From Rhodoblastus sp. (GTDB taxonomy: Bacteria; Pseudomonadota; Alphaproteobacteria; Rhizobiales; Beijerinckiaceae), in assembly GCA_047971685.1 (NCBI GenBank), contig JBKDZW010000089.1, forward strand, positions 4,488 to 68,487: DNA of 64,000 nucleotides, given 5' to 3'. The notes beneath the pieces were generated by a model, which had not been told where the DNA came from, did no database searches, and was given only the letters and a program-made list of their open reading frames with translations. Each line of letters starts with the position of its first letter. Position 1 is the first letter of the stretch. This document shows positions 48,161 to 63,393 of this stretch, piece by piece. Position numbers and translations under genes: made by a program.

Positions 48161-48172
48161 CAAACGGCGGAC

Positions 48173-49324: not shown

Positions 49325-49399
49325 ACCTGACCCCGGACCTTCAGGCTTTGCGGCCCGTTCGCGCGGCCTGTTCCGCCCAGGCCAGCGGCTTTTGCGGGA

Positions 49400-50200
49400 T
49401 CAGGCCGCCTGCCCGCCACCGACGACGCCAGCGGCCTCGTCTTCCTCGTCCTTGCGGACTGCGGCCTTGTAGGCGGGGATGATGTCGTCGGGATGGCCCA
49501 CTTCGCGCACCACGCCGGCGTCGATCCAGATCACGCGGTCGCAAAGCGTGCGCAGATAGTCGAGCCCGTGCGAAACGACCAGAATCGTGCCGCGCTTGGA
49601 AAATTCGGCGATGAAATTCTCGCATTTCTGCGCGAAAGCCTCGTCGCCGACCGAAAGCGCCTCGTCGACGATCAGAATGTCGGCGTCGACATGGGCGCAG
49701 ATGGCGAAGGCAAGCCGCGCGATCATGCCGCTCGAATAGAGCTTCATCGGCTGATCGAAAAACATGCCGATCTCGGCGAAATCGGCGATCTGATCGAGCT
49801 TGGCGACGATCTCGCGACGCGAGAGCCCCAGGACCGCGCCGCCGATGATCGCATTTTCGCGGCCGGACAATGTGGCGTCGAAGCCCGAGCCAAGCGCCAG
49901 GATAGGCGCAATGCGGCCGCGGATTTCGACCGTGCCGGTGGTCGGGCGCGTGATGCCGCACAGGATCTGGAGAAGCGTCGTCTTGCCCGCGCCGTTGCGG
50001 CCGATGATGCCGACGCATTCGCCCTTCCTGATATCGAAGGTGATATCGCGCAGCACCCAATGCTTTCTGTAATAGGTCTTGGCCCAGCCAAACAGCGCCT
50101 GCATCAACTGGTCGTTGCGGCGCAGGTAGAGCTGGAAGGCCTTGCCTGCGTTGCGGCAGGAAATCGCCAGTTCGGAAGACATCGGGCGATCAGAGGACAT
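49400..50200 (-). CDS. ABC transporter ATP-binding protein (Wzt/KpsT/TagH-like polysaccharide/lipid export type)
   Basis: Walker A GRNGAGKTT. Signature YSSGMIARL. Walker B ILIVDEAL. The N-terminus …LFGWAKTYYRKHWVLRDITFDI… is typical of ABC-2 exporters. An alternative start lies at 50182. Confidence 0.9.
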   Translation of the reverse strand: MSSDRPMSSELAISCRNAGKAFQLYLRRNDQLMQALFGWAKTYYRKHWVLRDITFDIRKGECVGIIGRNGAGKTTLLQILCGITRPTTGTVEIRGRIAPILALGSGFDATLSGRENAIIGGAVLGLSRREIVAKLDQIADFAEIGMFFDQPMKLYSSGMIARLAFAICAHVDADILIVDEALSVGDEAFAQKCENFIAEFSKRGTILVVSHGLDYLRTLCDRVIWIDAGVVREVGHPDDIIPAYKAAVRKDEEDEAAGVVGGGQAA

Positions 50201-51023
50201 CGACGATCACCGATTTGTATTCCTTGAAGAAACCGTAGCCGAACAGAAAGACAGCGTAAGAGGCCACGAAGCACGCCAGATACATCCACGGATCGGGAAA
50301 GCGCTCGTAGATCACAAGATCGCGCAGCATGGCGATGTAATCGCCTACCAGGTTGAGCTTGATCCAGGGTTGCAGATTGGCCGGCAATTGTTCGATCTGG
50401 AAGAAAACCGGCGTGGCGAACATCATCAGCGGCACGATCGAAACCATGAGATGGGCGACGTCGCGGGTAAAAGCGCCCAGCGCCATCAGGAACCAGACGG
50501 TGCCGAGCATCAAAAGCATGAACGGCAGGATGATGAGGGGTACGAAAATCACCTTCCACGAAATGAAGTGGACGGTGGCCAGCCGCACGGCGAGCAGCGT
50601 GGCGAAGCTGATCGCGCCATAGACGAGCGCGCGGATGGTGGAGGTCCAGGCGATCGTCTCGGACGGAAAGATCGACTTCTTGATGAAATGGACGTGCTCG
50701 TGCAGCAGCGTGGGCGAGCGCGCCGCCAGTTCCGCGAACACGTTGAACAGGATGAGGCCGCAAAAACTTGCCGCTGCATAATCGTAGATCGGCACGCCGG
50801 CTGCGACCGTCGGCGTCGCAATGGTGAAGATCGCAGTATAGACCAGCAGCATGGCGAGCGGCGCGAAGATCGCCCAGATCCAGCCCAGGAAGGAATCGCG
50901 GAACCGCGAGGTCAGTTCGCGCCGCACGACCGCGCGGATCAGCTCCCGGTGGTGCCAGGCCCGCTCGAACGGCTCAGTCAGGAATATCGGCAAGTCCTGG
51001 ATTTTCAACGCTGTGATTTCCAA
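50190..51023 (-). CDS. ABC-2-type transporter permease (Wzm/KpsM-like)
   Basis: TTG start. …HRELIRAVVRRELTSRFRDSFLGWIWAIFAPL… matches the ABC-2 N-terminal signature. Six predicted TM segments. Confidence 0.87.
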   Translation of the reverse strand: MEITALKIQDLPIFLTEPFERAWHHRELIRAVVRRELTSRFRDSFLGWIWAIFAPLAMLLVYTAIFTIATPTVAAGVPIYDYAAASFCGLILFNVFAELAARSPTLLHEHVHFIKKSIFPSETIAWTSTIRALVYGAISFATLLAVRLATVHFISWKVIFVPLIILPFMLLMLGTVWFLMALGAFTRDVAHLMVSIVPLMMFATPVFFQIEQLPANLQPWIKLNLVGDYIAMLRDLVIYERFPDPWMYLACFVASYAVFLFGYGFFKEYKSVIVDVL

Positions 51024-51143: not shown

Positions 51144-51504
51144 GCCTTGACGGCGCGGTCTTTTCGGATCGACCAAAATATCCGCCTCAGGCCCGAATTC
51201 ACCTTTTCCCCGGCGTCCGTCGCACATGCGCGACAACGCCGCGGCCCCCGACCCCGCGCTGTAGACCAGTTCCGGCGGGCTTCGTCAACGTCCGGCGGGC
51301 CGGGCTGCGGGCCGGACTGCCGGCGTTGAGAGGCGAGTTTGCCGTCAGGGGCTTTATTTCCGGGCGCGACTGCCTTAACGAAGGCCAGCGCGAACCGCCC
51401 GGTTGCGGTCGCCGAGCGTTCGGGCGGGCCCGGCCGCTGATATTCACGTCCGACCCGGCGCCAGGCGGCCGGGCGGTCCGAAACCCGAGAAATGGGGACG
51501 CCCC

Positions 51505-51774
51505 GTGGACTCTGTTGCGCAAGGCGATGAATTCTACGCCCAGATCATTGAAGTGATTTCGAAAGAGGGCATGGTCGAGGCCGACAAGGTCAAGCCCGAA
51601 GCCACAATCGAAAGTCTCGATCTCAAGTCTATCGACATCGTCATGATTCTGACGGCGATCGAGGAAAAATTCGACGTCTACATTCCCATGGACGGGGCCT
51701 TTCAGGAGGCCAAGACCGTTCAGGATCTGATCGACGCGCTGGCGACCCATATCAACAAAGAGAAGAAAAACTGA
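51505..51774 (+). CDS. Acyl carrier protein (dedicated, non-housekeeping type)
   Basis: PP-binding pattern …IESLDLKSIDIVMILTAIEEKFDVYIP…, with Ser in the LKS position of the usual D-S-L motif. GTG start chosen at 51505 because there is no in-frame ATG. The stop is directly followed by the KAS ATG (TGAATG). Confidence 0.72.
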   Translation: MDSVAQGDEFYAQIIEVISKEGMVEADKVKPEATIESLDLKSIDIVMILTAIEEKFDVYIPMDGAFQEAKTVQDLIDALATHINKEKKN

Positions 51775-52992
51775 ATGACGCAGGGCCGTCGGGTCGTCAT
51801 CACCGGCATGGGCGCCGTCTCCGGCGCCGGCGTCGGATGGAAGCCGCTGTGGAACGCCGCCCGCGAGGGCGCGAGCGTGGTCCGCGCGCTTGAATTTGCG
51901 CGCGATTATCCCGGCCGCATTCGCATCGGCGCGCAGGTTCCCGATTTCGATGCGGCCAAGCTGATCGAGCGCTCCACGCTGATGTATTGCGATCCCTTCA
52001 CGCAATACGCGATTGTGGCCGCCGATCAGGCGGTGGCCGAAGCCGGTTTCGACAACAAAAATGTCGGCGGCGCCGATTGCGCGGTCATTCTGGGGTCGGG
52101 CATTGGCGGCATCCGCACCGTCGACGACGGTCTCTTCGCGCTCTACGCAAAGGGCGTGAAGCCGGAACCGCTGAGCATTCCCAAGCTGATCGCCAGCGCC
52201 GGCCCCTCGATGCTGTCCATCCGCTACGACGCGCACGGGCCGGTGTTTGCGGTGGCCAGCGCGTGTTCCTCCGCAAATCAGGCGATCGGCATGGGCATGC
52301 ACATGGTGCGCTCCGGCATGGCCGAGCGCGCCATTGTCGGCGGCGCCGAGGCGAGCCTTTCGGTCGGCACCCAGATGACCTGGGAAATGCTGCGTGTGCT
52401 GACGCCGGACAAATGCCGCCCCTTCTCCAAGGGCCGCAACGGCATGAGCATCGGCGACGGCGCGGCCATGTTCGTTCTGGAAACCGAGGAGGCGGCGATG
52501 GCGCGCGGCGCGCCGATCCTGTGCCGCCTCGTGGGCTACGGCACTTCGGCGGACGCGCGCGACCCGATCCGCCCCGACGCGGACGGCGCCTCGCTCGCCA
52601 TGCGCCGCGCCATCGCGGACGCCGATATTCCCGCCGACACGATCCAGTACGTCAATGCGCACGGCACGGCGACCGCGCTCAACGATCCCACGGAAGCCGA
52701 GGCCATGGGCCGCATTTTCGGCGACAGGCTGGCCGAGGTCGCGGTCTCCTCGACCAAGCCGGTGCACGGCCATGCGCTGGGAGCTGCCGGCGCGCTGGAG
52801 CTGGTCTGCACCATCATGGCGATGCGCGAAAACATTGCGCCGCCGACGATCAATTTCCTCGAACCCGACCCCAAATGCCCTGTGGATTGCGTGCCCAACC
52901 AGGCGCGCGCCATGACGATCCGCACGGCCATGACCAATTCCTTCGCCTTTGGCGGCGTGAACGCCTCGCTCGTCCTCCAGGCGGCGGACTGA
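51775..52992 (+). CDS. Beta-ketoacyl-ACP synthase (KAS I/II, FabF-like)
   Basis: …RRVVITGMGAVSG…. Active-site Cys context AVASACSSANQAIG. His motifs NAHGTAT and …KPVHGHALGAAG…. 405 aa. Confidence 0.92.
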   Translation: MTQGRRVVITGMGAVSGAGVGWKPLWNAAREGASVVRALEFARDYPGRIRIGAQVPDFDAAKLIERSTLMYCDPFTQYAIVAADQAVAEAGFDNKNVGGADCAVILGSGIGGIRTVDDGLFALYAKGVKPEPLSIPKLIASAGPSMLSIRYDAHGPVFAVASACSSANQAIGMGMHMVRSGMAERAIVGGAEASLSVGTQMTWEMLRVLTPDKCRPFSKGRNGMSIGDGAAMFVLETEEAAMARGAPILCRLVGYGTSADARDPIRPDADGASLAMRRAIADADIPADTIQYVNAHGTATALNDPTEAEAMGRIFGDRLAEVAVSSTKPVHGHALGAAGALELVCTIMAMRENIAPPTINFLEPDPKCPVDCVPNQARAMTIRTAMTNSFAFGGVNASLVLQAAD

Positions 52993-52999
52993 GGGCGTC

Positions 53000-53422
53000 A
53001 TGGGCGTGGAGAGGCCGCTCGGGCCGCAGGAAACGGCCCTCGGTCCGTTCGAGGCTCTGGCCGATCCCGCCGCCATCGCCGCATTCAAGGCGGCGCTTGA
53101 CGCCCCGGGCGCGGTTCTTGACGCATCCGGCGCCGAAATTCCGGCGACTTTCCCGATTGTCTGGCTCTCTCTCCCCGCGCTCAAGACGGCGCTGCGCGAA
53201 GCCGCCGGCGCCGGCCACCTGCCGGTCCACGAATCCCAGTCCTTCGATTATGCGCAGCCGCTCGTTTCCGGCGCCGCCTATCGTATGAGCGTTGCGGCGC
53301 AACGCGAGAACGCCCCCCCGCGCCTCGTGGTCGAGGCTAAGGTCGCAGACGCCTCCGGCGCGAAAATCGTGACCATGCGCGCTGCGCTGCGGCTCGTTCC
53401 GCTGGCGGAGGGCGGCGCATGA
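53000..53422 (+). CDS. Hotdog-fold protein, MaoC_dehydrat_N / HadA-like (non-catalytic dehydratase subunit candidate)
   Basis: 140 aa, with pattern …PATFPIVW…ESQSFDYAQPLVSGAAY…RLVVEAKVADASG…. 4-nt overlap with the following MaoC gene. The assignment is by fold-like pattern and context. Confidence 0.6.
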   Translation: MGVERPLGPQETALGPFEALADPAAIAAFKAALDAPGAVLDASGAEIPATFPIVWLSLPALKTALREAAGAGHLPVHESQSFDYAQPLVSGAAYRMSVAAQRENAPPRLVVEAKVADASGAKIVTMRAALRLVPLAEGGA

Positions 53423-53823
53423 AACTTCCGGTTTCGCGCGGCGACACGATGCCGGAAACCATTGTCGGCCCGTTCGACGCGGCTGCGGTCGCAGCCTATG
53501 CGGCCGCCTCCGGCGACGACAATCCCTTGCATCTCGACGCTGCGCTTGCCGCCCGCGCAGGATTTGCCGCTCCGCCAGTCCATGGCATGCGGCTGATGGC
53601 CGAAATCGCGCCTGCGCTTGCCGCCTGGCGGCCGGACATGGCGCTCAAGCGCCTGTCGGCCACTTTCGTCGAGCCGTTGCTGGTCGGCGAGGAGGCGCGT
53701 CTTACGGCCCGCGTTCTTCGCGCGGAAGGCGACGTTCTGATGCGCATCGCCATCCAGGGGCCGCGTCGCGGTCCAAGCGTTCTGGCGGAAGCCGTTCTGG
53801 TTGCAAGGGCGGGCGCGTCATGA
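53419..53823 (+). CDS. MaoC-like (R)-specific hydratase/dehydratase (HadB-like catalytic subunit candidate)
   Basis: Hydratase-2 type motif …ASGDDNPLHLDAALAARAGFAAPPVHGM…. 134 aa. ATGA overlaps on both sides. Confidence 0.8.
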   Translation: MKLPVSRGDTMPETIVGPFDAAAVAAYAAASGDDNPLHLDAALAARAGFAAPPVHGMRLMAEIAPALAAWRPDMALKRLSATFVEPLLVGEEARLTARVLRAEGDVLMRIAIQGPRRGPSVLAEAVLVARAGAS

Positions 53824-54617
53824 GTCCTGCGCCGCGCTCCATCCTGATTACCGGCGCCTCCAGCGGCATTGGCCGGGCGCTTGCCCGCGAATATGCCGCG
53901 CCCGGCGTACGGCTGACGCTGGTTGGCCGCGACGGCGCGCGGCTTTCGGCCGCCGCCTCGGAATGCCGCGTCAAGGGCGCGGAAGTCGAAATCGGCCAGG
54001 TGGATGTGCGCGACCGGCAGGGCATGCACGATTTCTTGCGCGCTGCGGATGCAAAAGCGCCGCTCGATCTGGTGGTCGCCAACGCCGGCGTCAACACCGG
54101 CCTGCCGGCAGGCGCGCTCGCCGAAGATCCGGAAGCTGTGCGCGGCATTTTCGCGATCAACCTCCTCGGCGTTTTCAACACGGTGGAACCCATGATCGAG
54201 CCGATGGCCGCGCGTGGAAAAGGCGTGATCGCGATGACCGGCTCGATCGCCGCCGTGCGCGGCCTGCCCTATTCGCCGTCCTATTGCGCGACCAAGGCGG
54301 CGGTCCATCTTTACGCGGAATCCTTGCGCGGAACGCTCGCCCGCAAGGGCGTGACGGTCAGCCTGATCGTGCCGGGCTTCGTCCATACCGCGCTCAACGA
54401 GAAGCTGACCTCGCCGAAGCCGCTCGCCATGACCGACGAGCGCGCCGCGCGCATCGTCCGGCGCGGGCTCGACCGGCGCAAGGCCAACATCGTCTTCCCG
54501 CGCCTGCTGTATTGGGGGGCGCGGCTGCTGACGGTCCTGCCGGCGCGGCTCGTCGATTTCTTCATGGTGCGCCAGTATGTCGACGTGCCGGTCACGCGCG
54601 AGAGGATGACGCCTTGA
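53820..54617 (+). CDS. Classical SDR oxidoreductase (ketoacyl-ACP reductase or 3-ketosphinganine/oxo-ceramide reductase candidate)
   Basis: TGASSGIGRALA Rossmann motif, NAG motif, and catalytic S…YCATK. Confidence 0.88.
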   Translation: MSPAPRSILITGASSGIGRALAREYAAPGVRLTLVGRDGARLSAAASECRVKGAEVEIGQVDVRDRQGMHDFLRAADAKAPLDLVVANAGVNTGLPAGALAEDPEAVRGIFAINLLGVFNTVEPMIEPMAARGKGVIAMTGSIAAVRGLPYSPSYCATKAAVHLYAESLRGTLARKGVTVSLIVPGFVHTALNEKLTSPKPLAMTDERAARIVRRGLDRRKANIVFPRLLYWGARLLTVLPARLVDFFMVRQYVDVPVTRERMTP

Positions 54618-55786
54618 ACGTCGCTCTCGACATCCTGCGTTGGGCCACGCTCGTTTTCTGCGCGATCTCGCTCGCCGGCCTCGTGCTGACCGTAGCGCTC
54701 GGACTGATCTCGCCGCTGATCCATGCGCGCCGCGCGCGCAGGTCCGATCTGCCGCCGATCAGCTTTATCCTGCCTATCAAGGACTGGGCGACAAGCTTCG
54801 GTCCTTCGCAATCCTCGGTCTTTGCGCTCGACTATCCCGAATATGACGTGACCGCGACGGCGGCGGAGGCCGAATCGCAGGCCGTAACGGCGATGCGCGA
54901 CATTATTGCCGCCCATCCCGACCGCCCGGCCAAACTGGTGCAATCGACGGCCAGCTTTGCCGTCAGCCCCAAGGTCAACAATATTTACAGCGCGATCGAG
55001 GAGGCCAGATACGATCTCATCGCCACCAAGGATTGCAACATCGTGTTGCCGCCGCGCACCGCGCGCATGGCGGTCGCCGCCATGACCGAGAACGTGGGGC
55101 TTGTGACCGCCATAACCGAGGCGCGCGGCGCGACCTCGCTGGCGGCGCGGATCGAGGCCTCGATCATGAACCAGTCGCATGCGCGCTATCTTCACGCAGC
55201 GGCCGCGCTGGGGCTCGGTTTCGGGCTCGGCAAGCTGATGATCTTCAAGCGCTCGGATCTGCACCGGGCCGGCGGTTTTGAAGCCATCGCCCATACCGTG
55301 GGCGAGGATTCGGCGACCGCCCATGCGCTTGCAGGCATCGGCCTGCGCACGGTCATCATCGGCGCGCCGATCTATCAGGTGCTGGGCGCGCGCAAATTCG
55401 GCGATATGCACAACCGTCAGATGCGCTGGGCCGTCATAAGGCGCCAGAACGAACTGGCCGGTTTTCTGGCCGAACCTTTCGGCCTGTCGGTCTTTGTGGC
55501 GCTGGCGGCGGCTTTTGCGGCGCCGCTTCTTGGCTGGAGCGCGCCGGGCGCCTTTCTGGCGACGCTCGTCTTCTGGTTTGCCTGCGAAACCGCGCTTGCC
55601 TTGGCGCGGGGCTGGGATGTATCGGTGAGCGCGCCCTTCGTCATGGTCGCCCGCGATGCGATGATGGCTTCGGTCTGGCTGCGCGCCTGGTTCACCAGGC
55701 GGGTCGTCTGGGCGGCCGAAGTTTACGAGGCGCAGCAGGAGCGTGGCTCGATGCCTGCCCCCGCCCAGAAAAGGAATGATGCGTGA
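54614..55786 (+). CDS. GT21-family glycosyltransferase (ceramide glucosyltransferase / UGCG-like)
   Basis: A TTG start overlaps the SDR stop (TTGA). Regions align by eye to human UGCG: LPPISFILPIK…FALDYPEYDV, SPKVNNIYSAIEEARYDLIATKDCNIVLPP, MTENVGLVTAI, GEDSATAHAL, and Q-x-RW (NRQMRWAVIRR). The 661-aa ORF in the track includes an out-of-frame leader. Confidence 0.8.
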   Translation: MNVALDILRWATLVFCAISLAGLVLTVALGLISPLIHARRARRSDLPPISFILPIKDWATSFGPSQSSVFALDYPEYDVTATAAEAESQAVTAMRDIIAAHPDRPAKLVQSTASFAVSPKVNNIYSAIEEARYDLIATKDCNIVLPPRTARMAVAAMTENVGLVTAITEARGATSLAARIEASIMNQSHARYLHAAAALGLGFGLGKLMIFKRSDLHRAGGFEAIAHTVGEDSATAHALAGIGLRTVIIGAPIYQVLGARKFGDMHNRQMRWAVIRRQNELAGFLAEPFGLSVFVALAAAFAAPLLGWSAPGAFLATLVFWFACETALALARGWDVSVSAPFVMVARDAMMASVWLRAWFTRRVVWAAEVYEAQQERGSMPAPAQKRNDA

Positions 55787-57060
55787 CGGCGCAAGGATTG
55801 CTCGTCGGATTGATCGACATTGCGCTCACGCTATGCGTTCTCGGCATGGCGGCGATTGGCGCGAGCCTGCTCGTTCTGGTGGTTCGCTTTCTCTACGACC
55901 AGGCGCGCGGCGCAGGCGACGGTTCACGCGACGTCGCGCCGCTGGCGGAAGCCGACCTGCCGCATGTCGTCCTGCAAATTCCCGTTTTCAACGAGCCGCG
56001 CGTGGTGATCGGCGCCCTGCGCGCCGCCGCCGCGCTCGATTGGCCGCGCGAAAAACTGCACCTTCAATTGCTCGACGATTCCACCGACGAGACCACCGAG
56101 CGCGCCGCCGAACTGATCGCGGAATTGCGCGCCGAGGGCCACGACGTGCGCCATGTGCGCCGCGAGGACCGCACGGGCTTCAAGGCCGGCGCGTGCGCCG
56201 CCGGTCTGGCGCTCGACGATTCGCCGTTCGTGGCGATGCTCGATGTCGATTTCCGCCCGCCGGCCGACTGGCTGCGCAAGGCCATTCCCGTCATCGTCGG
56301 CGATCCCAAGGCCGGCTTCGTGCAGGCGCGCTGCGAATTCGCCAATTACCGCAAAAACTGGCTGACGCGCGTACAGGGCCTGATCCTCGACGGCCATTTC
56401 ATGATCGAGCAGCGCACCCGCGCCAATCTCGGCTGGCTGTTCCAGTTCAACGGCACGGGCGGCATATGGCGGCGCGCAGCCATCGATTCGGTCGGCGGCT
56501 GGCAGGATTATTCGCTGACCGAAGACCTCGACCTCACCATCCGCACCGCGCTTGCCGGCTGGCACGGCCGGTTCATTTCCGAGCCCGCCAGTCCCGGCCA
56601 GATGCCCGAGGGCATGCGCGACTGGCGCCGCCAGCAGCGCCGCTGGTCCAACGGCTTCATTCAGGTCGCCCAGCGGACGCTCGGACCGATCTGGACCGCG
56701 CCATGGAGCCTGGCCGAACGCCTGTCCTCGATCATGCTCGTGCTGCATCAGGTGTTCTTTCCGTTGTGCGCGGGCGCAATCATCCTCATCATTCTCGGCA
56801 TTCTGGCGCGAGGAATCTCGATTGCAGCCTATCTGCCGCTGTTCGGCCTGATCTTCCTGATGGTCTGCGCGGTCGTGATCGGCATGACCCTGCCGCCCTC
56901 TCTCGCGCTCAAGCGTGGGTCGTTCTGGCGCTATCTCGCCACCATGGCCATGCTGCCGCCGCTGTTCATCTATCTGGCCGTCGCCAATGCGCCGAAAATC
57001 ATCCAGACCGCGCGCGGGCGGCAGGAGCATTTCAAGCGCACGCCCAAGAAAGAGCATTAA
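55783..57060 (+). CDS. Family 2 glycosyltransferase, processive type (CslA / MGlcDG-synthase-like), membrane-embedded
   Basis: A GTG start overlaps the GT21 stop (GTGA). Motifs: …VVLQIPVFNE…, LLDDSTD, MLDVDF, TEDLDL and QQRRW (QxxRW). N-terminal and multiple C-terminal TM segments. Confidence 0.87.
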   Translation: MTAQGLLVGLIDIALTLCVLGMAAIGASLLVLVVRFLYDQARGAGDGSRDVAPLAEADLPHVVLQIPVFNEPRVVIGALRAAAALDWPREKLHLQLLDDSTDETTERAAELIAELRAEGHDVRHVRREDRTGFKAGACAAGLALDDSPFVAMLDVDFRPPADWLRKAIPVIVGDPKAGFVQARCEFANYRKNWLTRVQGLILDGHFMIEQRTRANLGWLFQFNGTGGIWRRAAIDSVGGWQDYSLTEDLDLTIRTALAGWHGRFISEPASPGQMPEGMRDWRRQQRRWSNGFIQVAQRTLGPIWTAPWSLAERLSSIMLVLHQVFFPLCAGAIILIILGILARGISIAAYLPLFGLIFLMVCAVVIGMTLPPSLALKRGSFWRYLATMAMLPPLFIYLAVANAPKIIQTARGRQEHFKRTPKKEH

Positions 57061-57455: not shown

Positions 57456-58907
57456 ATGGACGACAAACTTGCATTCGCCTCGGCGGCCACGCTCGCAAAA
57501 CTGGTGCGCGAAAAAAAGGTCGGGGCGGTCGAACTTCTGGAATTCTTTCTTGCGCGCGTCGAACGCCACAATCCCACTCTCAACGCCATCATCGTCCAGC
57601 GCGCGGACGCCGCCAGAAAAGAGGCTGCGGCCTGCGACGCCATGACCGCGAAAGGCCAGTCGATGGGGGCGCTGCACGGCGTGCCCATGACGGTCAAGGA
57701 ATCCTTCGATGTCGCGGGCACGCCGTCCACCTGGGGATTGACGGCGTTCCGCGACAATATCGCGGCCAGGGACGCGCTTTCCGTCGAGCGGTTGAAGGGC
57801 GCTGGCGCGGTCGTTTTCGGCAAGACCAATGTGCCGGCCTGGCTTGCCGACTGGCAATCGTTCAACCCGATCTACGGCACGACCAACAATCCCTGGAATG
57901 TCGGGCGCACGCCGGGCGGTTCTTCAGGCGGCAGCGCGGCGGCGCTGGCGGCGGGACTCACGGGGCTGGAGATAGGCAGCGACATCGGCGCCTCCATCCG
58001 CGATCCCGCCCATTATTGCGGGGTTTACGGCCACAAGCCGACCTTCGACATCTGCCCGCGCGACGGCCATCTCCTGCCCGGCGCCTATGCCCACGGCGAT
58101 ATTTCCGTGATCGGCCCGCTGGCGCGCTCGGCCTACGATCTGGAGACCGCGCTCGACATTATCGCAGGGCCCAATGCGCTCGAGGCCACGGGGCTGCGCC
58201 TGGAATTGCCGCGCTCGAAAAAGACGAAACTGTCGGAGTTTCGCGTCGCCGTCATGCCTTCGGCCGACACCGCGCCGGTCGATGGCGCCGTGCGTGAAAA
58301 AATCGAGGAGCTTGCCGGTTTTCTGGAAGGCCAGGGCGCCCATGTCGATCGCGCCGCGCGCCCCGTCGATCCAGCCGCCGCGCACGAGACCTACATCATG
58401 CTCCTGCGCTCGGCGACCAGCGGCGCGCTCGATGACGCGGTTTACGAAAAATTGCTGGCTGCGCGAAAAGAGGTTGCAGGGCGCAACGATTATTTCGCCT
58501 GGCATGCGCGCGCAAACACGATGGGCCATCGCGAATGGCTGCGCTGGAACAATGCCCGCGCGAAAATGCGGCTCGACTGGCAGGCGTTTTTTACCCGCTT
58601 CGATCTCCTGCTCTGCCCGACCGCCACGACAACCGCGTTTCCGCACATGCAGACCGGCGAGCGCTGGGAACGCATGATTTCGGTCGACGGCAAGGACCAG
58701 CCGACGACGACGCAGCTTTTCTGGGCGGGCTATTCCGGCATGGTCGATCTGCCATCGACCATCGCGCCGCTCGGGCTGGCGAAAGACGGCCTGCCGGTCG
58801 GCGTGCAGATCGTGGCGCCGGCCTATCGGGATCACAGCGCCATCCGCTTCGCGCAATTGCTGGAAGACCGGTATCGCGCGTTCGAGCCGCCGCCGGGGTT
58901 TGCATAA
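57456..58907 (+). CDS. Amidase-signature (AS) family amidase
   Basis: AS motif GGSSGGSAAALAAG, catalytic Lys context VPMTVKESF, and …GSDIGASIRDPA…. RBS GGGAGGA. Confidence 0.9.
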   Translation: MDDKLAFASAATLAKLVREKKVGAVELLEFFLARVERHNPTLNAIIVQRADAARKEAAACDAMTAKGQSMGALHGVPMTVKESFDVAGTPSTWGLTAFRDNIAARDALSVERLKGAGAVVFGKTNVPAWLADWQSFNPIYGTTNNPWNVGRTPGGSSGGSAAALAAGLTGLEIGSDIGASIRDPAHYCGVYGHKPTFDICPRDGHLLPGAYAHGDISVIGPLARSAYDLETALDIIAGPNALEATGLRLELPRSKKTKLSEFRVAVMPSADTAPVDGAVREKIEELAGFLEGQGAHVDRAARPVDPAAAHETYIMLLRSATSGALDDAVYEKLLAARKEVAGRNDYFAWHARANTMGHREWLRWNNARAKMRLDWQAFFTRFDLLLCPTATTTAFPHMQTGERWERMISVDGKDQPTTTQLFWAGYSGMVDLPSTIAPLGLAKDGLPVGVQIVAPAYRDHSAIRFAQLLEDRYRAFEPPPGFA

Positions 58908-58939
58908 GACCGGCCAGTCGGCCAGCCATGGCGGCGGGA

Positions 58940-59626
58940 TCAGAGCGGCTTGTCGCCGGGCTTGTCGTCCTTGGCATAGCCGGTGCCGAACACATCGTCC
59001 CAATAAGGGCAGCTCACGCCATAGCCGCGGTCGGGATCGCGGAAATGATGCAGGAGGTGCGCACGGCGCAGGATCTGCTCGACCCTGGTGTGCGGCGGGC
59101 GGTGATGAATGTGGTAGTGGATCTCGTCGTAGAGCACGTAGCCGACGAGGAAGCCGGCCGTGATCGAATAGGACAGAGGCTCCGGAAACAGCAGGGTGAT
59201 CACGACATAAGCGAGCGCCATCAGCGGCACGCTCATCAGCAGGGGCATGACGAGGCGCAGGGGATCGCTCGGATGCACGTGATGCACGCCGTGCAGCAGG
59301 AAGTGGATGCGCTCGCCGATCCTGCCGGGAAATTCCGTGTGAAAGACCCAGCGATGGAAGACATATTCGCAGAGCGTCCAGGCGATATAGCCGAAGATCA
59401 GGCAGGCGATGGTGATGAACGCCGGTTGCCCCCTGGCGCCGAGCCAGCCGAGCCAGGCGGCGAAGGGAAGATAGAACAGCGGCGCCCACCAGGGTACGCG
59501 CGAAAGCAGGTCCAGCACACGATTGTCGAAAATGCGCGGCGAGGCCGCCAGAAGCTCGGCCTTGCTCATGCCCTGCGTCGACATATGCGCGTATGGGTCG
59601 CGCGCGGTTTGCGTCGTGTCGCTCAT
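58940..59626 (-). CDS. Fatty acid 2-hydroxylase (FA2H/Scs7-like, fatty-acid hydroxylase superfamily) lacking a cytochrome b5 domain
   Basis: His boxes and flanks align by eye with human FA2H: WTLCEYVFHRWVFH, HFLLHGVHHVHPSDPLRLVMP, GYVLYDEIHYHIHH and LRRAHLLHHF…GYGVS…WDDVFGT. Confidence 0.85.
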   Translation of the reverse strand: MSDTTQTARDPYAHMSTQGMSKAELLAASPRIFDNRVLDLLSRVPWWAPLFYLPFAAWLGWLGARGQPAFITIACLIFGYIAWTLCEYVFHRWVFHTEFPGRIGERIHFLLHGVHHVHPSDPLRLVMPLLMSVPLMALAYVVITLLFPEPLSYSITAGFLVGYVLYDEIHYHIHHRPPHTRVEQILRRAHLLHHFRDPDRGYGVSCPYWDDVFGTGYAKDDKPGDKPL

Positions 59627-59636
59627 GCCAGTCTCC

Positions 59637-60647
59637 TCACGCCGCCGCAGTCGGCGCGCTTGTCGCCGGCGCCGGCGTACTTGCCGCCGGCGCCGCGCCG
59701 AGATTCTCGGTGCGCGACATCAGCGAATATCGCGGGTTGAAGATGAAATCGAAGAACAGTTTCACCCAGGATTTGTGGGCGTGCAGGTTATTGTAGAATT
59801 CCGGCGCCGTGGCCTTCAACCTGGGCAGCAGGGCCCAGGGGATTTCCTGAAAATCGTGATGTTCGTTGTGATAGCCGATGTTGAGCGCGAAGAAGTTCAG
59901 GGGGCCGTAGTAATCGAACGTGCCCTGCCCCGGCCAGGCCGCGTAATGCTCCTGAATCCAGCGCGCGCCCAGCGGATGCAGGCCGACCGAGAACCAGAAG
60001 GAAGCAAACAGGTAAAACAGCGCATTGCCGCCGAGGAAATACCAGACCGCGATGTCGAAGACCGCGATGACGGCGAAATTGACGTAGGTCCACAGGCCCC
60101 AGATCGGCACCGTGCCCTTGAGGCGGTAGATGCGGGTGAGCTGCATCACGGGGAAGAAGAACAGCCACAGGGCTTTGCGCCACCAGACATTGCCGACGAG
60201 TTTTGCCTCCCAGCCGGAGGGCACGTCGGCGTCGTAATCGTAGCTGGACAGATGCGAATGGTGCTTCACATGGTAGCAGCGAAAGCCCATGGCGGTCGGA
60301 AAGGCGTTGGGCAGATCGGCCAGAATCGCATTCCATTTGTTGAGCGTGGGGCTCTGGAACACGGCGTTGTGGATGGAATCGTGAATGATCACGAACATGG
60401 CGTGATTGGCGAATGCGCCGATTCCATAGGCGAGCAGCAGGGTCGCCCACCAATAGGACATGCCGAGATAGCCCATCCAGGCGGCGATCGCGACTTGCAG
60501 GACGAATACGCCGGCGGTGATCCAGAAGGTTCTGATGTCGCGCACCATGAGCTGGGCCACTTCCGGATGGGCGGCCAGGATCGCCTTGCGGCGATCGACA
60601 TGGCTTCGGTCGACGCCGAGAGCGGTAACGGGAACGCTCATGTTCAT
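59637..60647 (-). CDS. Sphingolipid Delta4-desaturase (DEGS1/Des1-like; Lipid_DES N-terminal region plus FA desaturase domain)
   Basis: Collinear by eye with human DEGS1: HVDRRKAILAAHPEVAQLM, NHAMFVIIHDSIHNAVF, FRCYHVKHHSHL, GLHPLGARWIQEHY, YYGPLNFFALNIGYHNEHHDFQEIP and SWVKLFFDFIFNPRYSLMSR. It carries an extra Ala/Pro/Thr-rich C-terminal tail. Confidence 0.9.
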   Translation of the reverse strand: MNMSVPVTALGVDRSHVDRRKAILAAHPEVAQLMVRDIRTFWITAGVFVLQVAIAAWMGYLGMSYWWATLLLAYGIGAFANHAMFVIIHDSIHNAVFQSPTLNKWNAILADLPNAFPTAMGFRCYHVKHHSHLSSYDYDADVPSGWEAKLVGNVWWRKALWLFFFPVMQLTRIYRLKGTVPIWGLWTYVNFAVIAVFDIAVWYFLGGNALFYLFASFWFSVGLHPLGARWIQEHYAAWPGQGTFDYYGPLNFFALNIGYHNEHHDFQEIPWALLPRLKATAPEFYNNLHAHKSWVKLFFDFIFNPRYSLMSRTENLGAAPAASTPAPATSAPTAAA

Positions 60648-60663
60648 GTCTGTCTTTCCCGCC

Positions 60664-61863
60664 TCACCCGGCCTGCGCCGCGCCCGTCAGGGCTGCTTGC
60701 GGCGCGCCGTCGAGGCGCTTCTCGTAGATACGATGGATTTTGTCGATTTTAGCGCCACTCATCTCAATGGGTCTGCGCATGCCGGCGTTATCTTCCAGAA
60801 CCCAGCCGAATTCCACTTGATCTAACGCAACTTTGCGGCTCCGCAGGCGTAATTCTTCTATCATGGTCATGATGACGATGCCGCCGCGTGCGCTCTTATG
60901 TAGCGCCTTCGTCATGCCGAACAGGGCGAGGCGGCCGGATTTATAGTCGCGTTTGCGAATGCGGGCGACCACCTTCGGCAGGCCGAACGGAAAAAGCCTG
61001 CCGTCGAGATCGGCCACGATCTCGTGCAGATTGGGCACGACAATTCCGAAGGCGACGGGCTCGCCGTCGATTTCGGTCACAAAGCCCCAATCCTCGGTCA
61101 TCAGGAATTTCAGGCTGTCGGCCATCGACTTGAATTCTTCGCGCGTGATCGGGACAAAGCCCCAGTTTCCGGCCCAGGCGTCGTTGAAAAGGCGCGTCAT
61201 CAGATCGACCTCGCTGTCGAGGTCGTTCATGCGCAGGGCCCGGAATTTCAGGCGTTCGCGCCATTCCGGGCGGTTGAGCAGCAAAGGCTCGGCGTTGCGG
61301 TCCGTCGCGGAGACATCGTAGCGGTAGGAAATGAGGTCGCGCGCCTTGGCGTAGCCCAGCGCCTCGACATGGGCGCTCAGATAGGGCGGATGCCAGGGAA
61401 TGAAGACCATGGGCGTGGCCTCGAAACCCTGGACCAGAAGGCCGCATTCGGCGTTGACCGAGGGCGAGAACGGCCCGTGGACAACCTCTGCGCCCTCGCG
61501 CTTCAGCCAGGCTTCCGCAGCCGCCAGCAGCGCCGCCACGACCTCGCGGTCGTCGACCGCATCGAGCGAGCCGAACTGATAGCGGGAAGCTAGATTGGGG
61601 CGGACCTCGTTATAGACCTGCGCCTCGATGCGGCCAACGGTCGCGCCGTCTCGTTTGGCCAGAAAGGCCTGCGAGCGCACGAGCCTGTAATGCGGATTGA
61701 GCTTGTGGGCGTACATGGCCCAGCGCTCGGCGTCGAGCGAGGGCGAAAAGCCCGGCCAGCCGCGATAGAGCCGGCGCGGCGCGCGGCAAAACTCCATGAA
61801 GGCGCGAAGGCCCGAGACGGGCGATATCTCGACGGCGTTCCGATGAACTGATGCTGCGGACAT
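60664..61863 (-). CDS. Large GNAT-like N-acyltransferase (bacterial ceramide synthase bCerS-like candidate)
   Basis: ~400 aa, with …AWLKREGAEVVHGPFSPSVNAECGLLVQGFE…PPYLSAHVEALGYAKARDL… and a C-terminal GNAT-like half. The start at ATG 61863 is inferred (alternatives at 61875 and 61899). The functional call rests on family resemblance recalled from the literature plus adjacency to the Spt-like gene. Confidence 0.68.
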   Translation of the reverse strand: MSAASVHRNAVEISPVSGLRAFMEFCRAPRRLYRGWPGFSPSLDAERWAMYAHKLNPHYRLVRSQAFLAKRDGATVGRIEAQVYNEVRPNLASRYQFGSLDAVDDREVVAALLAAAEAWLKREGAEVVHGPFSPSVNAECGLLVQGFEATPMVFIPWHPPYLSAHVEALGYAKARDLISYRYDVSATDRNAEPLLLNRPEWRERLKFRALRMNDLDSEVDLMTRLFNDAWAGNWGFVPITREEFKSMADSLKFLMTEDWGFVTEIDGEPVAFGIVVPNLHEIVADLDGRLFPFGLPKVVARIRKRDYKSGRLALFGMTKALHKSARGGIVIMTMIEELRLRSRKVALDQVEFGWVLEDNAGMRRPIEMSGAKIDKIHRIYEKRLDGAPQAALTGAAQAG

Positions 61864-61935
61864 GGCGCCGCCCATAGCACGGACGCAGGCCGGAACCAAC
61901 GCCGGCCTGCGCGAATTGGAGCGGTTCCAGACGGG

Positions 61936-63273
61936 TTAGAAAGCCGCCGCCGGCTGATCGCCCGGCAGGACGAGACCGCGCGGCGGCTCGACGACCGGCC
62001 GGTCGACGATCAATTGCACGACCTGGCGGATATCGTCCTCGGTGTGGCTGGCCGAGATGAAGAAGCGCAGGCGCGGCTTGTCCTTGGGCACGCCTACCTG
62101 CACGACGGGCGGCACATAGACGCCGTGCGCCAGCAGGTGCTGGGAGACGGCCATGGTCTCCCACACCGAATTGAACAGGATCGGCACGACGGCGCGCCCG
62201 ATCGCGGGGCCGGTGTCGAGGCCGGCGGCCTGCGCCGTGTTGCGCAGGAATTCGGCGTTATGCGCGAGTTTGGCGATGCGCCAGGATTCCGACTGCATCA
62301 GGTCCAGCGCCTTGGAGGCGGCAGCCGTGATGACCGGCGACAGGCCGACCGAATAGACGAAGCCCGGCAGGGTGAATTTCATCCAGTCGATGAGCAATTG
62401 CTTGCCGGCGACGAAACCGCCGCAGGAGGCGAAACTCTTCGACAAGGTGCCGACGATGAGATCGACGCGGGCGGGGTCGACGCCGCAATATTCGCACAGG
62501 CCCGCGCCGCGCTTGCCGAGAACGCCGATGGAATGGGCCTCGTCGACCAGAAGCCACACGCCGTGCTTTTCCTTGATGTCGCAGATGCGCGCCAGATCGA
62601 CCGTGTCGCCGTCCATCGAATAGAGGCTTTCGACGACGATCAGGCAATTGCGGTATTTCTCGCGGTGCTCGGTGAGCAATTGGTCGAGATGGTCGAAATC
62701 GTTGTGGCGGAATACGATCTGGGCCGCATCCGCATTGCGCGCGCCGGTCGCCACGCTGTTGTGCGACAATTCGTCGAGGAAGATCGCGTCGCGCTTGGCC
62801 ATCAGATGGGTGATGACGGTCAGATTGGTCAGATAGCCCGAGACCAGCGACAGCGTCGCTTCGGTTCCCAGAAACTTCGCGAGATTTTCCTCGAATTTCT
62901 GGTGGGTCGAACGCTCGCCGCCGACAAGGCGGGACGCGAGCGCGCCCACGCCCAGCGTGTCGATGGCCCGGTGGGCGGCCGCCTTCACTTCCGGATGCTC
63001 GGCAAGCCCCAGATAATCGTAATTGGCGAAAGAGACGTAATGCCCGCCGTTCCGGCCCTCGATCTCCGCCTTGAGCGTGTCGGTCGGCGCGAAGAACGGA
63101 TTGCCGTGCTCGTCGAGGATGGCTTTGCCGGCGAGCCTGTAGCGCCGGAACGCATAATCGGAGAGGCTTTGGTGTTTTTTCGCCACGCAGAAAGGTTCCG
63201 GTTGCGGGACGGTCCGCCCCTGATTGCGTCGCGCAGCGCGCTGGGCCGCCTGCCGACGCTGCCCCTTTACCAT
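61936..63273 (-). CDS. PLP-dependent alpha-oxoamine synthase, serine palmitoyltransferase (Spt)-like
   Basis: AOS family motifs …FANYDYLGL…, …SHNS…, …VDEAHSIG… and PLP-lysine GTLSKSF. BioF/KBL/ALAS alternatives are considered. The operon context with DEGS-, FA2H- and bCerS-like genes favours Spt. Confidence 0.8.
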   Translation of the reverse strand: MVKGQRRQAAQRAARRNQGRTVPQPEPFCVAKKHQSLSDYAFRRYRLAGKAILDEHGNPFFAPTDTLKAEIEGRNGGHYVSFANYDYLGLAEHPEVKAAAHRAIDTLGVGALASRLVGGERSTHQKFEENLAKFLGTEATLSLVSGYLTNLTVITHLMAKRDAIFLDELSHNSVATGARNADAAQIVFRHNDFDHLDQLLTEHREKYRNCLIVVESLYSMDGDTVDLARICDIKEKHGVWLLVDEAHSIGVLGKRGAGLCEYCGVDPARVDLIVGTLSKSFASCGGFVAGKQLLIDWMKFTLPGFVYSVGLSPVITAAASKALDLMQSESWRIAKLAHNAEFLRNTAQAAGLDTGPAIGRAVVPILFNSVWETMAVSQHLLAHGVYVPPVVQVGVPKDKPRLRFFISASHTEDDIRQVVQLIVDRPVVEPPRGLVLPGDQPAAAF

Positions 63274-63393
63274 TAACCCGCAGGTCTGCGCCAGTAGCAG
63301 GCAGACCGCCGAAGCTCCGCCAGCTAAACCATTGTCGCCGAAACAGTCAATTCAGGGCCGGGGCGGGGGCCCCGCCAGGGCTTGAACGGGCGT

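What the first reader, a model, noticed from the sequence alone, without database searches (positions are those of the whole stretch)
58940..59626. FA2H/Scs7-like fatty-acid 2-hydroxylase without the cytochrome b5 domain, last gene of the spt operon
All four His-rich motifs and their flanks match the catalytic domain of eukaryotic FA2H (HRWVFH, HGVHH, HYHIHH, HLLHH). The N-terminal cytochrome b5 fusion found in eukaryotes is missing, which implies a separate electron donor. Its placement 10 nt downstream of the DEGS-like gene suggests 2-hydroxy-acyl ceramides.
Basis: partly seen in the sequence, partly recalled or inferred. Interest (0 to 1): 0.65.

Follow-up and report, generated by a model that had tools for sequence, protein, structure and literature searches.

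The report
Bacterial ceramide fatty-acid 2-hydroxylase gene
This is a real, conserved gene for a membrane di-iron hydroxylase of the same subfamily as yeast Scs7 and human FA2H, but without their built-in cytochrome b5; it ends a four-gene sphingolipid-type operon in a Rhodoblastus-like soil or water bacterium, and is a new member of a known enzyme kind rather than a new kind.

Summary
ORF 58940-59626 (-) encodes 228 aa with all four His boxes. It starts 10 nt after the stop of a DEGS-like desaturase gene, behind an AGGAG ribosome-binding site.

- **Family evidence:** It passes Pfam PF04116. Its only solved relative is yeast Scs7 (E 5.5e-30; about 39-43% identity). All 12 conserved Scs7 histidines, plus Tyr322 and Asp323, align to identical residues. 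An AlphaFold model superposes on Scs7 at TM 0.80. Of the 118 nearest full-length relatives among 1.8 billion representative proteins, 34 carry an N-terminal cytochrome b5 domain, which is the FA2H architecture.
- **Conservation:** The gene is under purifying selection (dN/dS 0.17-0.40). It is the last gene of the order AOS(spt-like), tandem-GNAT acyltransferase, DEGS-like, FA2H-like in 12 related genomes. This operon faces an ACP-KAS-dehydratase-SDR-GT21-GT2 operon.
- **Not settled:** No ferredoxin, rubredoxin or cytochrome b5 lies in the 64 kb window. The substrate (ceramide N-acyl C-2) and the product (2-hydroxyacyl glycosyl-ceramide) are inferred, not shown. More distant homologues sit beside GT21 genes without an spt gene, and one related cluster lacks the gene, so it is an accessory tailoring step.

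b5-less FA2H enzymes are already known in plants and myxobacteria. Verdict: new member of a known kind, moderate interest.

The parts
58940..59626 (-). FA2H/Scs7-type fatty-acyl 2-hydroxylase CDS, 228 aa, no cytochrome b5 domain; predicted 4 TM helices (res 48-66, 69-94, 129-146, 151-175) plus a cytoplasmic His-rich cap
59339..59356 (-). His box 1, HRWVFH (H91, H96 = Scs7 H244, H249)
59279..59305 (-). His box 2, HFLLHGVHH (H108, H112, H115, H116 = Scs7 H264, H268, H271, H272), followed by the subfamily motif PSDPLRLVMP
59102..59119 (-). His box 3, HYHIHH (H170, H174, H175 = Scs7 H326, H330, H331); preceded by Y166-D167 = Scs7 Y322-D323
59045..59059 (-). His box 4, HLLHH (H190, H193, H194 = Scs7 H345, H348, H349)
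59627..59637 (-). 10-nt intergenic spacer with AGGAG ribosome-binding site (59637-59633) overlapping the upstream stop codon
59637..60647 (-). DEGS-like sphingolipid delta4-desaturase-type gene, 336 aa (PF00487 plus PF08557 Lipid_DES)
   Evidence: synteny
60664..61899 (-). Tandem-GNAT N-acyltransferase (candidate bacterial ceramide synthase); likely true start at 61863 (399 aa); no Pfam or NCBIfam hit
61936..63273 (-). Alpha-oxoamine synthase, spt-like, first gene of the operon
51403..57060 (+). Partner operon, convergent with the first: ACP (PP-binding), KAS, two MaoC-type dehydratase-like genes, SDR, GT21 (ceramide glucosyltransferase family; about 54614-55786), GT2 (55783-57060)
   Evidence: synteny
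58908..58939 (.). 32-nt gap between the convergent amidase and FA2H-like genes. An 8-bp GC-rich hairpin follows the FA2H-like stop codon; its 3' arm runs on to about 58910. Weak terminator candidate.
   Evidence: z = -1.9 only; one search found no consensus terminator

Best explanation
The gene encodes an integral inner-membrane di-iron oxygenase of the FA2H/Scs7 subfamily. It has four transmembrane helices. The four His boxes are gathered in a cytoplasmic cap that binds two metal ions.

Using O2 and two electrons from a separate soluble carrier, it most likely hydroxylates C-2 of the amide-linked fatty acyl chain of a (dihydro)ceramide. The carrier is inferred to be a housekeeping ferredoxin or flavodoxin with its reductase, since no cytochrome b5 is fused or nearby.

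That ceramide would be made by the three upstream genes: the alpha-oxoamine synthase makes the long-chain base, the tandem-GNAT enzyme N-acylates it, and the DEGS-like enzyme desaturates it. The GT21 and GT2 glycosyltransferases of the facing operon would then glycosylate the 2-hydroxyacyl ceramide.

What is shown by computation: gene reality, subfamily membership, fold, conservation of all metal ligands, and conserved operon position. What is inferred: regiochemistry, substrate, electron donor, co-transcription and the final lipid.
For: - **Domain:** PF04116 at 64.5 bits.
- **Solved relatives:** phmmer against the PDB finds only Scs7, at E 5.5e-30 over query 32-223.
- **Catalytic residues:** Identity to the Scs7 catalytic domain is about 39-43% by BLASTP and local alignment. 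All 12 conserved Scs7 His, and Y322/D323, align to identical residues.
- **Fold:** The AF2 model has pLDDT 85.3. Foldseek gives 4ZR0/4ZR1 at TM 0.80 and rmsd 2.2 A, with no other hit below E 1.
- **Sequence neighbourhood:** The exhaustive search gives 3390 relatives. All 118 nearest full-length ones are PF04116 and 34 carry Cyt-b5. In an NJ tree, Scs7 and the b5 fusions group together and the query sits in a b5-less Beijerinckiaceae clade.
- **Relative closeness:** The query is closer to yeast Scs7 (111 bits) than to the PF04116 proteins of Novosphingobium (106 bits) or Rhizobium (73 bits).
- **Independent label:** JGI's own annotation is 'dihydroceramide fatty acyl 2-hydroxylase'.
- **Context:** 12 loci show the AOS-GNAT-DEGS-FA2H order. 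The desaturase gene overlaps or abuts the FA2H start, and the ACP-KAS-DH-SDR-GT21-GT2 operon is also conserved.
- **Neighbouring genes:** The DEGS-like gene has the sphingolipid-specific Lipid_DES domain. GT21 scores 144.7 bits. The 411-aa neighbour has a tandem-GNAT fold.
- **Selection:** dN/dS is 0.17-0.40.
- **Precedent:** Functional b5-less FA2H homologues are known in myxobacteria and plants (PMC10002949).
Against: - No lipid, transcript or enzyme data exist for this organism, and no sequencing run was found.
- The AOS is below all NCBIfam SPT cutoffs and nearly ties with KBL among solved structures (209.6 against 206.7 bits).
- No CerR-type (NDUFA9-like) reductase was seen in the window.
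- Homologues at 47-54% identity in Beijerinckia mobilis, Methylocapsa polymorpha and one MAG lie beside GT21 genes, with no AOS within 10 kb.
- An Ignavibacteria homologue has no lipid context.
- A related cluster (L018) has no FA2H gene.
- No electron donor lies in the 64 kb window.
- Regiospecificity cannot be read from sequence.
- No named reference sequences of other PF04116 subfamilies (SUR2, ERG3, ERG25, CrtZ, OlsE) were available for a proper phylogeny.
Confidence: 0.68

Rival explanations
1. Same enzyme family and same pathway, but a different reaction. It could hydroxylate free fatty acid or acyl-ACP before N-acylation. Or it could act on the long-chain base (C-4 hydroxylation, Sur2-like outcome) or at another acyl position.
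For: The only established in vitro FA2H assay uses free fatty acids, and the in vivo substrate is debated even for the eukaryotic enzymes (PMC10002949). The cluster has its own ACP and KAS, so an acyl-ACP pool is at hand. Regiochemistry is not readable from sequence.
Against: The protein is 39-43% identical to Scs7 and conserves Y322/D323. From my own recollection of Zhu et al. 2015, which I could not read here, these residues are determinants of the Scs7 hydroxylase reaction. No relation to Sur2-type proteins could be detected or tested.
Confidence: 0.15
2. It modifies a non-sphingolipid membrane lipid. Examples are an ornithine lipid (OlsE-like head-group hydroxylation) or the acyl chains of a glycosyl-diacylglycerol made by a GT21 enzyme. 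On this reading its position after the DEGS-like gene is incidental.
For: [quoted passage not shown] Homologues at 47-54% identity pair with GT21 genes without a nearby AOS. In L018, olsB/olsA-like genes flank the cluster and the FA2H gene is absent.
Against: The position is fixed in 12 loci, with a 10-nt gap or overlapping coupling to the DEGS-like gene. The query is much closer to Scs7 (111 bits) than to the Rhizobium tropici-group PF04116 protein (73 bits). That Rhizobium protein lacks the HGxHH...PxDxxRLVMP signature. GT21 is the ceramide glucosyltransferase family, so FA2H-GT21 pairing is also what a sphingolipid role predicts.
Confidence: 0.12
3. It is a sterol desaturase or carotenoid hydroxylase, as the NCBI product name on homologues suggests.
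For: NCBI names homologues 'sterol desaturase family protein'. PF04116 also contains sterol and carotene enzymes.
Against: The name is the generic family label. The query has no NCBIfam hit at all. The only solved relative is Scs7, and its nearest relatives include 34 b5-fused FA2H-type proteins. tblastn against 72,556 plasmids at E<=1 gave no carotene-hydroxylase-labelled hit. No sterol or carotenoid genes lie nearby.
Confidence: 0.03

Closest known systems
Saccharomyces cerevisiae Scs7p / human FA2H (ceramide very-long-chain fatty acid 2-hydroxylase; PDB 4ZR0, 4ZR1)
   Same: PF04116 catalytic domain. About 39-43% identity over about 190 residues. All 12 conserved His, plus Y322/D323, are identical. 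Four-TM plus cap fold (TM 0.80). Sphingolipid genomic context.
   Different: No N-terminal cytochrome b5 domain, so the protein is 228 aa against 384 aa. Bacterial inner membrane instead of ER. Electron donor unknown. Activity untested.
Arabidopsis FAH1/FAH2 (dihydroceramide fatty acyl 2-hydroxylase, EC 1.14.18.7)
   Same: FA2H-type enzymes that naturally lack the b5 domain and use a separate carrier (PMC10002949). JGI annotates homologues of the query with this enzyme name.
   Different: The plant enzymes dock to free ER cytochrome b5. No cytochrome b5 gene was found in this window. In the NJ tree, the one b5-less sequence with a known plant-lineage source (Chara braunii) groups with the eukaryotic b5 fusions, not with the query clade (no support values).
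Myxobacterial fatty acid alpha-hydroxylases (Ring, Schwaer & Bode 2009, as cited in PMC10002949)
   Same: Bacterial, FA2H-like with conserved His motifs, functionally tied to sphingolipid formation.
   Different: A different phylum. The operon with AOS, tandem GNAT and DEGS-like genes described here is not reported in the papers I could read.
Sphingomonas paucimobilis P450 SPalpha (CYP152B1) fatty acid alpha-hydroxylase
   Same: Supplies 2-hydroxy fatty acids in a sphingolipid-producing alphaproteobacterium (PMC10002949).
   Different: An unrelated fold and chemistry: a soluble H2O2-dependent P450 acting on free fatty acids.
OlsE ornithine-lipid hydroxylase (Rhizobium tropici, Agrobacterium)
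   Same: [quoted passage not shown]
   Different: It hydroxylates C-4 of the ornithine head group. The only Rhizobium tropici-group PF04116 protein I could fetch is 30% identical (73 bits) and lacks the FA2H second-box signature. Its identity as OlsE is unverified.

Membership tests
FA2H/Scs7 subfamily of the fatty acid hydroxylase superfamily | PF04116 FA_hydroxylase catalytic domain above the gathering score | tested here: met
   64.5 bits against a cutoff of 31, residues 77-215 cover profile positions 2-132 of 132
FA2H/Scs7 subfamily of the fatty acid hydroxylase superfamily | Four His boxes supplying the di-metal ligands, in register with Scs7 | tested here: met
   Query H91, 96, 108, 112, 115, 116, 170, 174, 175, 190, 193, 194 align to Scs7 H244, 249, 264, 268, 271, 272, 326, 330, 331, 345, 348, 349. 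They are invariant or nearly so in 74 homologues. Eight of them stay invariant and H112 nearly invariant in the 119-sequence alignment.
FA2H/Scs7 subfamily of the fatty acid hydroxylase superfamily | Four-TM helix bundle with a cytosolic cap, as in the Scs7 crystal structure | tested here: met
   AF2 pLDDT 85.3, pTM 0.83. Foldseek against 4ZR0_A gives TM 0.80, rmsd 2.2 A over 204 columns, and no other PDB fold below E 1. This is a prediction, not an experiment.
FA2H/Scs7 subfamily of the fatty acid hydroxylase superfamily | Closer to bona fide FA2H enzymes than to other PF04116 subfamilies (SUR2, ERG3, ERG25, CrtZ, OlsE) | tested here: inconclusive
   Scs7 is the only PDB relative. 34 of the 118 nearest representatives have the FA2H-specific b5 fusion. 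The query-Scs7 score exceeds its score with the other bacterial PF04116 proteins fetched. No named SUR2, ERG3, CrtZ or OlsE sequences were available for a direct tree.
FA2H/Scs7 subfamily of the fatty acid hydroxylase superfamily | Tyr322/Asp323 equivalents before His box 3 (role recalled from Zhu et al. 2015, not readable here) | tested here: met
   Y166/D167 align to them. They are invariant in A1 and at least 90% conserved in A2.
FA2H/Scs7 subfamily of the fatty acid hydroxylase superfamily | N-terminal cytochrome b5 domain (animals, fungi, protists only; absent in plant and myxobacterial members) | tested here: not met
   PF04116 is the only Pfam hit. Only a 31-residue, low-confidence N-terminus precedes the region that aligns with Scs7. 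The ORF cannot be extended upstream. This feature is not required for membership (PMC10002949).
FA2H/Scs7 subfamily of the fatty acid hydroxylase superfamily | O2-dependent hydroxylation at C-2 of a ceramide-bound or free fatty acid | not testable with these tools
   Needs lipid analysis or an enzyme assay.
Bacterial ceramide pathway (Spt, bCerS, CerR) | Spt: alpha-oxoamine synthase of the serine palmitoyltransferase clade | tested here: inconclusive
   PF00155 at 182 bits. NCBIfam SPT models score 206-294 bits, all below their cutoffs of 500-670, and BioF scores higher at 350 bits. The best PDB hit is SPT 3A2B at 209.6 bits against KBL at 206.7.
Bacterial ceramide pathway (Spt, bCerS, CerR) | bCerS: soluble or peripheral N-acyltransferase homologous to Caulobacter bCerS | tested here: inconclusive
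   Tandem-GNAT fold by AF2 plus Foldseek, and 2427 'hypothetical' homologues. No Caulobacter reference sequence was available for direct comparison.
Bacterial ceramide pathway (Spt, bCerS, CerR) | CerR: NDUFA9-like reductase near spt | tested here: not met
   No such gene was found among the window genes scanned with Pfam (two predicted genes, 29582-31660, were not scanned). Only a classical SDR (53820-54617) is present, with a weak Epimerase hit at E 3e-4.
Sterol desaturase / carotene hydroxylase clades of PF04116 | Best matches to ERG3/SC5D/CrtZ-type proteins | tested here: not met
   No NCBIfam hit. No carotene-hydroxylase-labelled hit in plasmids at E<=1. The nearest relatives are FA2H-type. 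The 'sterol desaturase family protein' labels are generic.

The most novel reading that the evidence does not exclude
Taken with its neighbours, the gene completes a eukaryote-style ceramide tailoring set in a Hyphomicrobiales bacterium: a delta4-desaturase, an acyl 2-hydroxylase and a GT21 glucosylceramide-synthase-type transferase. This set is grafted onto a bacterial core of soluble AOS, tandem-GNAT acyltransferase and a dedicated ACP/KAS module. If so, these bacteria make delta4-unsaturated, 2-hydroxyacyl hexosylceramides of the fungal or plant type. The b5-less bacterial FA2H clades could then be the ancestral form of the eukaryotic enzyme, or an ancient transfer from eukaryotes. In the taxonomic survey I read, sphingolipids are treated as restricted to Sphingomonadales within Alphaproteobacteria (PMC7179689), and I found no lipid report for Beijerinckiaceae.
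Probability: 0.3. Interest if true: 0.6.

Novelty: new member of a known kind. Interest (0 to 1): 0.38.

Why it matters
It predicts that Rhodoblastus-like and other Beijerinckiaceae bacteria make hydroxylated, desaturated glycosphingolipids. These bacteria are common in soils, peat and wastewater metagenomes. Such lipids are usually read as eukaryotic or Sphingomonadales markers in environmental lipidomics.

It also gives a compact, b5-less FA2H orthologue with 39-43% identity to the yeast enzyme. That protein could serve as a tractable bacterial model for a human disease enzyme (FA2H, SPG35). It could also help settle whether FA2H enzymes act on ceramide or on free fatty acid.

The electron-donor question for bacterial membrane di-iron lipid oxygenases remains open here.

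Tried and rejected
- **Sequencing runs:** A search for public RNA or DNA runs holding 58000-63300, to test co-transcription, listed none.
- **Electron donor:** Motif scans for cytochrome b5, rubredoxin, 2Fe-2S, 4Fe-4S and Rieske signatures over all six-frame ORFs gave only two matches, both in non-coding frames. Pfam scans of about 47 of 49 predicted window genes gave no soluble ferredoxin, flavodoxin or b5.
- **Promoter and terminator scan:** The counts were no better than shuffles. The hairpin after the stop codon is only marginal.
- **Fusion as a functional link:** The FA_hydroxylase plus FA_desaturase fusion P0193 was tested as a Rosetta-stone link to the DEGS-like neighbour. Its desaturase half is not a DEGS relative (E 0.058), so I rejected it as evidence.
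- **Naming distant relatives:** The cluster look-up of ten representatives returned mostly unnamed metagenomic proteins.
- **Key papers not held:** I could not read Stankeviciute et al. 2022 (bCerS definition) or Zhu et al. 2015 (Scs7 structure). What I say about them rests on citing papers or on my own recollection, and is marked as such.
- **Literature on this cluster:** Searches for a described bacterial DEGS/FA2H cluster, or for Beijerinckiaceae sphingolipids, found nothing relevant.
- **Sterol desaturase / CrtZ reading:** Considered and rejected; see the rival explanations.
Full report
**1. The observation**

The minus-strand ORF 58940-59626 exists. It starts with ATG and encodes 228 residues.

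The upstream DEGS-like ORF ends with TGA at 59639-59637. The next 10 nt are GGAGACTGGC, followed by the ATG. An AGGAG Shine-Dalgarno sequence overlaps the stop codon and lies 6 nt before the start.

In this 64% GC window many long spurious ORFs occur, but this one has coding-type composition: GC3 0.83 and GC2 0.43. It is under purifying selection, with dN/dS of 0.17-0.40 against seven orthologues. The next gene downstream is a convergent amidase (57456-58907, + strand) 32 nt away, so the ORF is the last of a four-gene minus-strand run.

**2. What the protein is**

- **Family scans.** Pfam gives a single hit, PF04116 FA_hydroxylase, at 64.5 bits against a cutoff of 31. NCBIfam gives nothing.
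- **Solved structures.** Against all PDB sequences the only relative is yeast Scs7, the ceramide very-long-chain fatty acid 2-hydroxylase, at E 5.5e-30 over query residues 32-223.
- **Catalytic residues.** A local alignment gives 42.7% identity over 185 residues, and BLASTP gives 39% over 197. All twelve conserved Scs7 histidines (H244, 249, 264, 268, 271, 272, 326, 330, 331, 345, 348, 349) align to histidines in the query. Scs7 Y322/D323 align to Y166/D167. The role of Y322/D323 in the hydroxylase reaction is my recollection of Zhu et al. 2015, which I could not open.
- **Conservation.** The twelve histidines, Y166/D167 and the stretch HHxxPxDxxRLVMP after box 2 are invariant or nearly so among 74 close homologues. 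Among the nearest 118 representatives, eight histidines stay invariant and H112 stays nearly invariant; Y166/D167 and P119, D121, R124 and P128 of the box-2 stretch are also at least 90% conserved.
- **Fold.** An AlphaFold2 model (pLDDT 85.3, pTM 0.83) has four long membrane helices and a helical cap. Foldseek matches it to 4ZR0/4ZR1 at TM 0.80 and rmsd 2.2 A, and to nothing else below E 1.

**3. Which subfamily**

An exhaustive HMMER search of 1.84 billion representative proteins found 3390 relatives, 102 of them below 1e-30.

All 118 nearest full-length relatives are PF04116 proteins. Of these, 34 carry an N-terminal cytochrome b5 domain, which is the hallmark FA2H/Scs7 architecture. In a neighbour-joining tree, Scs7 and the b5 fusions group together. 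The query sits in a b5-less Beijerinckiaceae clade among other short bacterial clades. That tree is rough and has no support values.

The query scores higher with yeast Scs7 (111 bits) than with PF04116 proteins from Novosphingobium (106 bits) or a Rhizobium tropici-group chromid (73 bits). The Rhizobium protein lacks the FA2H box-2 signature.

JGI annotates homologues as 'dihydroceramide fatty acyl 2-hydroxylase'. NCBI's 'sterol desaturase family protein' is the generic family label. I could not obtain named Sur2, Erg3, CrtZ or OlsE sequences, so a formal subfamily phylogeny remains to be done. Everything available points to FA2H.

**4. No cytochrome b5 and no donor in sight**

The ORF cannot be extended upstream, and close orthologues have the same length. 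Motif scans of all six-frame ORFs found no b5, rubredoxin, ferredoxin or Rieske candidate in a coding-like frame. Pfam scans of about 47 of 49 predicted genes in the window found no soluble electron carrier.

A separate donor is therefore required, but it is not encoded locally. By analogy with other bacterial membrane di-iron enzymes, I infer a general ferredoxin or flavodoxin system. Lack of b5 is not new in itself: plant FAH1/FAH2 and the functional myxobacterial homologues also lack it (PMC10002949).

**5. Context**

The minus-strand run has four genes:
- An alpha-oxoamine synthase at 61936-63273. Its best solved relative is Sphingobacterium SPT at 209.6 bits, barely ahead of KBL at 206.7 bits. 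It falls below all NCBIfam SPT cutoffs.
- A 411-aa (probably 399-aa) protein with no family hit. Its AF2 model is a tandem-GNAT acyltransferase resembling MshD, FemX and N-myristoyltransferase. That is what a bacterial ceramide synthase would look like, but I could not compare it with Caulobacter bCerS.
- A desaturase with PF00487 plus the sphingolipid-specific Lipid_DES N-terminal domain.
- The FA2H-like gene itself.

Facing it is a plus-strand operon: ACP, KAS, two MaoC-type dehydratase-like genes, SDR, GT21 (the ceramide glucosyltransferase family, 144.7 bits) and GT2.

tblastn of these proteins against 16 related loci shows the same order in Rhodoblastus-like and other Hyphomicrobiales MAGs. 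Twelve loci contain the AOS-GNAT-DEGS-FA2H run. In four of them the desaturase 3' end overlaps the FA2H start. The amidase between the operons is present in some loci and absent in others.

The gene is an accessory, not a core, component. A complete Beijerinckiaceae genome has AOS, GNAT and DEGS followed by a transposase, then the GT and ACP operon, with no FA2H. The 47-54% identical homologues of Beijerinckia mobilis, Methylocapsa polymorpha and one MAG lie next to GT21 genes, with no AOS within 10 kb. An Ignavibacteria homologue has no informative context.

**6. Mechanism proposed**

The AOS condenses an acyl thioester, probably from the dedicated ACP, with serine. The tandem-GNAT enzyme N-acylates the base, and a reductase (unidentified, perhaps the SDR) reduces the 3-keto group.

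The DEGS-like enzyme then introduces the delta4 double bond. The FA2H-like enzyme, with its di-iron site on the cytoplasmic face of the inner membrane, inserts a hydroxyl at C-2 of the N-acyl chain, using O2 and two electrons from a soluble carrier. GT21 and GT2 add sugars.

Only the gene models, family and fold assignments and the synteny are shown. Substrate, position, donor and product are inferred. I put 0.68 on '2-hydroxylation of the sphingolipid N-acyl chain'. Family membership itself I put at about 0.9.

The rivals are:
- Another substrate form or position within the same pathway (0.15).
- A non-sphingolipid target such as ornithine lipid or glycoglycerolipid (0.12). This is kept alive by the OlsE precedent (PMC12971839) and by the FA2H-GT21 pairs that lack a nearby AOS.
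- A sterol or carotenoid enzyme (0.03).

**7. Novelty**

Bacterial FA2H homologues tied to sphingolipids were shown in myxobacteria in 2009 (cited in PMC10002949). b5-less FA2H enzymes are textbook in plants, and an annotation pipeline already names this family correctly. The gene is therefore a new member of a known kind.

The wider cluster is the more interesting object, and it is not in the literature I could search. It combines a eukaryote-like tailoring trio (delta4-desaturase, 2-hydroxylase, GT21) with a bacterial AOS, a tandem GNAT and an ACP/KAS module. It occurs in a family where no sphingolipids are reported: the taxonomic survey I read treats them as restricted to Sphingomonadales among Alphaproteobacteria (PMC7179689), although spt genes have been noted in 'a few Rhizobiales' (PMC10411912).

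Noticed in passing
window 51403-57060 (+): ACP, KAS, two MaoC-type dehydratase-like genes, SDR, GT21 and GT2 form an operon. It is syntenic with the AOS-GNAT-DEGS-FA2H operon in ten related MAG loci (an eleventh, L003, holds it up to its contig end) and, with a single GT gene, in one complete genome. It looks like a dedicated acyl-chain-building module plus two lipid glycosyltransferases.
   Followed up: partly
window 60664-61899 (-), likely start 61863: This 399/411-aa protein is annotated 'hypothetical' in every source and has no Pfam or NCBIfam hit. It has 2427 homologues and a confident tandem-GNAT fold. It is a candidate bacterial ceramide synthase, but was not compared with Caulobacter bCerS.
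   Followed up: partly
window 57456-58907 (+): An amidase (NCBIfam PRK06170, 612 bits) sits between the two lipid operons. It is present in L001-L005, L007, L008 and L011, and absent at that position in L009, L010 and L013, so it is probably not part of the pathway.
   Followed up: partly
L015 10001-12030; L016 7543-10612; L017 10001-11831: FA2H-like genes 47-54% identical to the query lie next to GT21 genes, with no alpha-oxoamine synthase within 10 kb. The genomes are Beijerinckia mobilis, Methylocapsa polymorpha and one MAG. This is a recurrent hydroxylase-GT21 pairing.
   Followed up: partly
L018 (Beijerinckiaceae bacterium CP024846) 6313-18378: This related cluster has a DDE transposase where the FA2H-like gene would be. 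It also has olsB/olsA-like acyltransferase genes just upstream of the AOS.
   Followed up: no
proteins P0193 (539 aa) and P0202 (429 aa): These are natural fusions of an FA2H-like domain, one with a fatty acid desaturase domain and one with a PAP2_C domain. As I recall, PAP2_C is the C-terminal domain of sphingomyelin synthase-type enzymes. The desaturase half of P0193 is not DEGS-like.
   Followed up: partly
window 45906-51023: GT1 and GT8-like glycosyltransferases, an LptF/LptG-family permease and an ABC-2 permease/ATPase pair lie directly beside the lipid cluster. The ABC-2 pair is syntenic in related loci. This may be an export route for the glycolipid.
   Followed up: no
window 61936-63273 (-): The AOS ORF has a basic N-terminal extension of about 45 aa (MVKGQRRQAAQRAARRNQ...). 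tblastn matches in related loci are shorter than the full ORF, so the true start may be internal.
   Followed up: no
window 58908-58939: A GC-rich 8-bp hairpin (GGCUGGCC-GACU-GGCCGGUC) lies in the 32-nt convergent gap (its last bases reach about 58910), followed by UUAU. It is only marginally more stable than shuffles (z = -1.9).
   Followed up: yes
window 16863-19979 and 33722-35746: A pyruvate formate-lyase with its activating enzyme, and a multihaem cytochrome c/TPR protein. These are anaerobic-metabolism genes in a genome that also carries two O2-dependent lipid oxygenases.
   Followed up: no
L022 (Novosphingobium sp. P6W plasmid pP6W2) 8076-8600: A plasmid-borne FA2H-like 'sterol desaturase family protein' (35% identity to the query) in a sphingolipid-producing genus. 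It sits among capsule and LPS-type genes. It may be an alternative to the P450 alpha-hydroxylase in sphingomonads.
   Followed up: no
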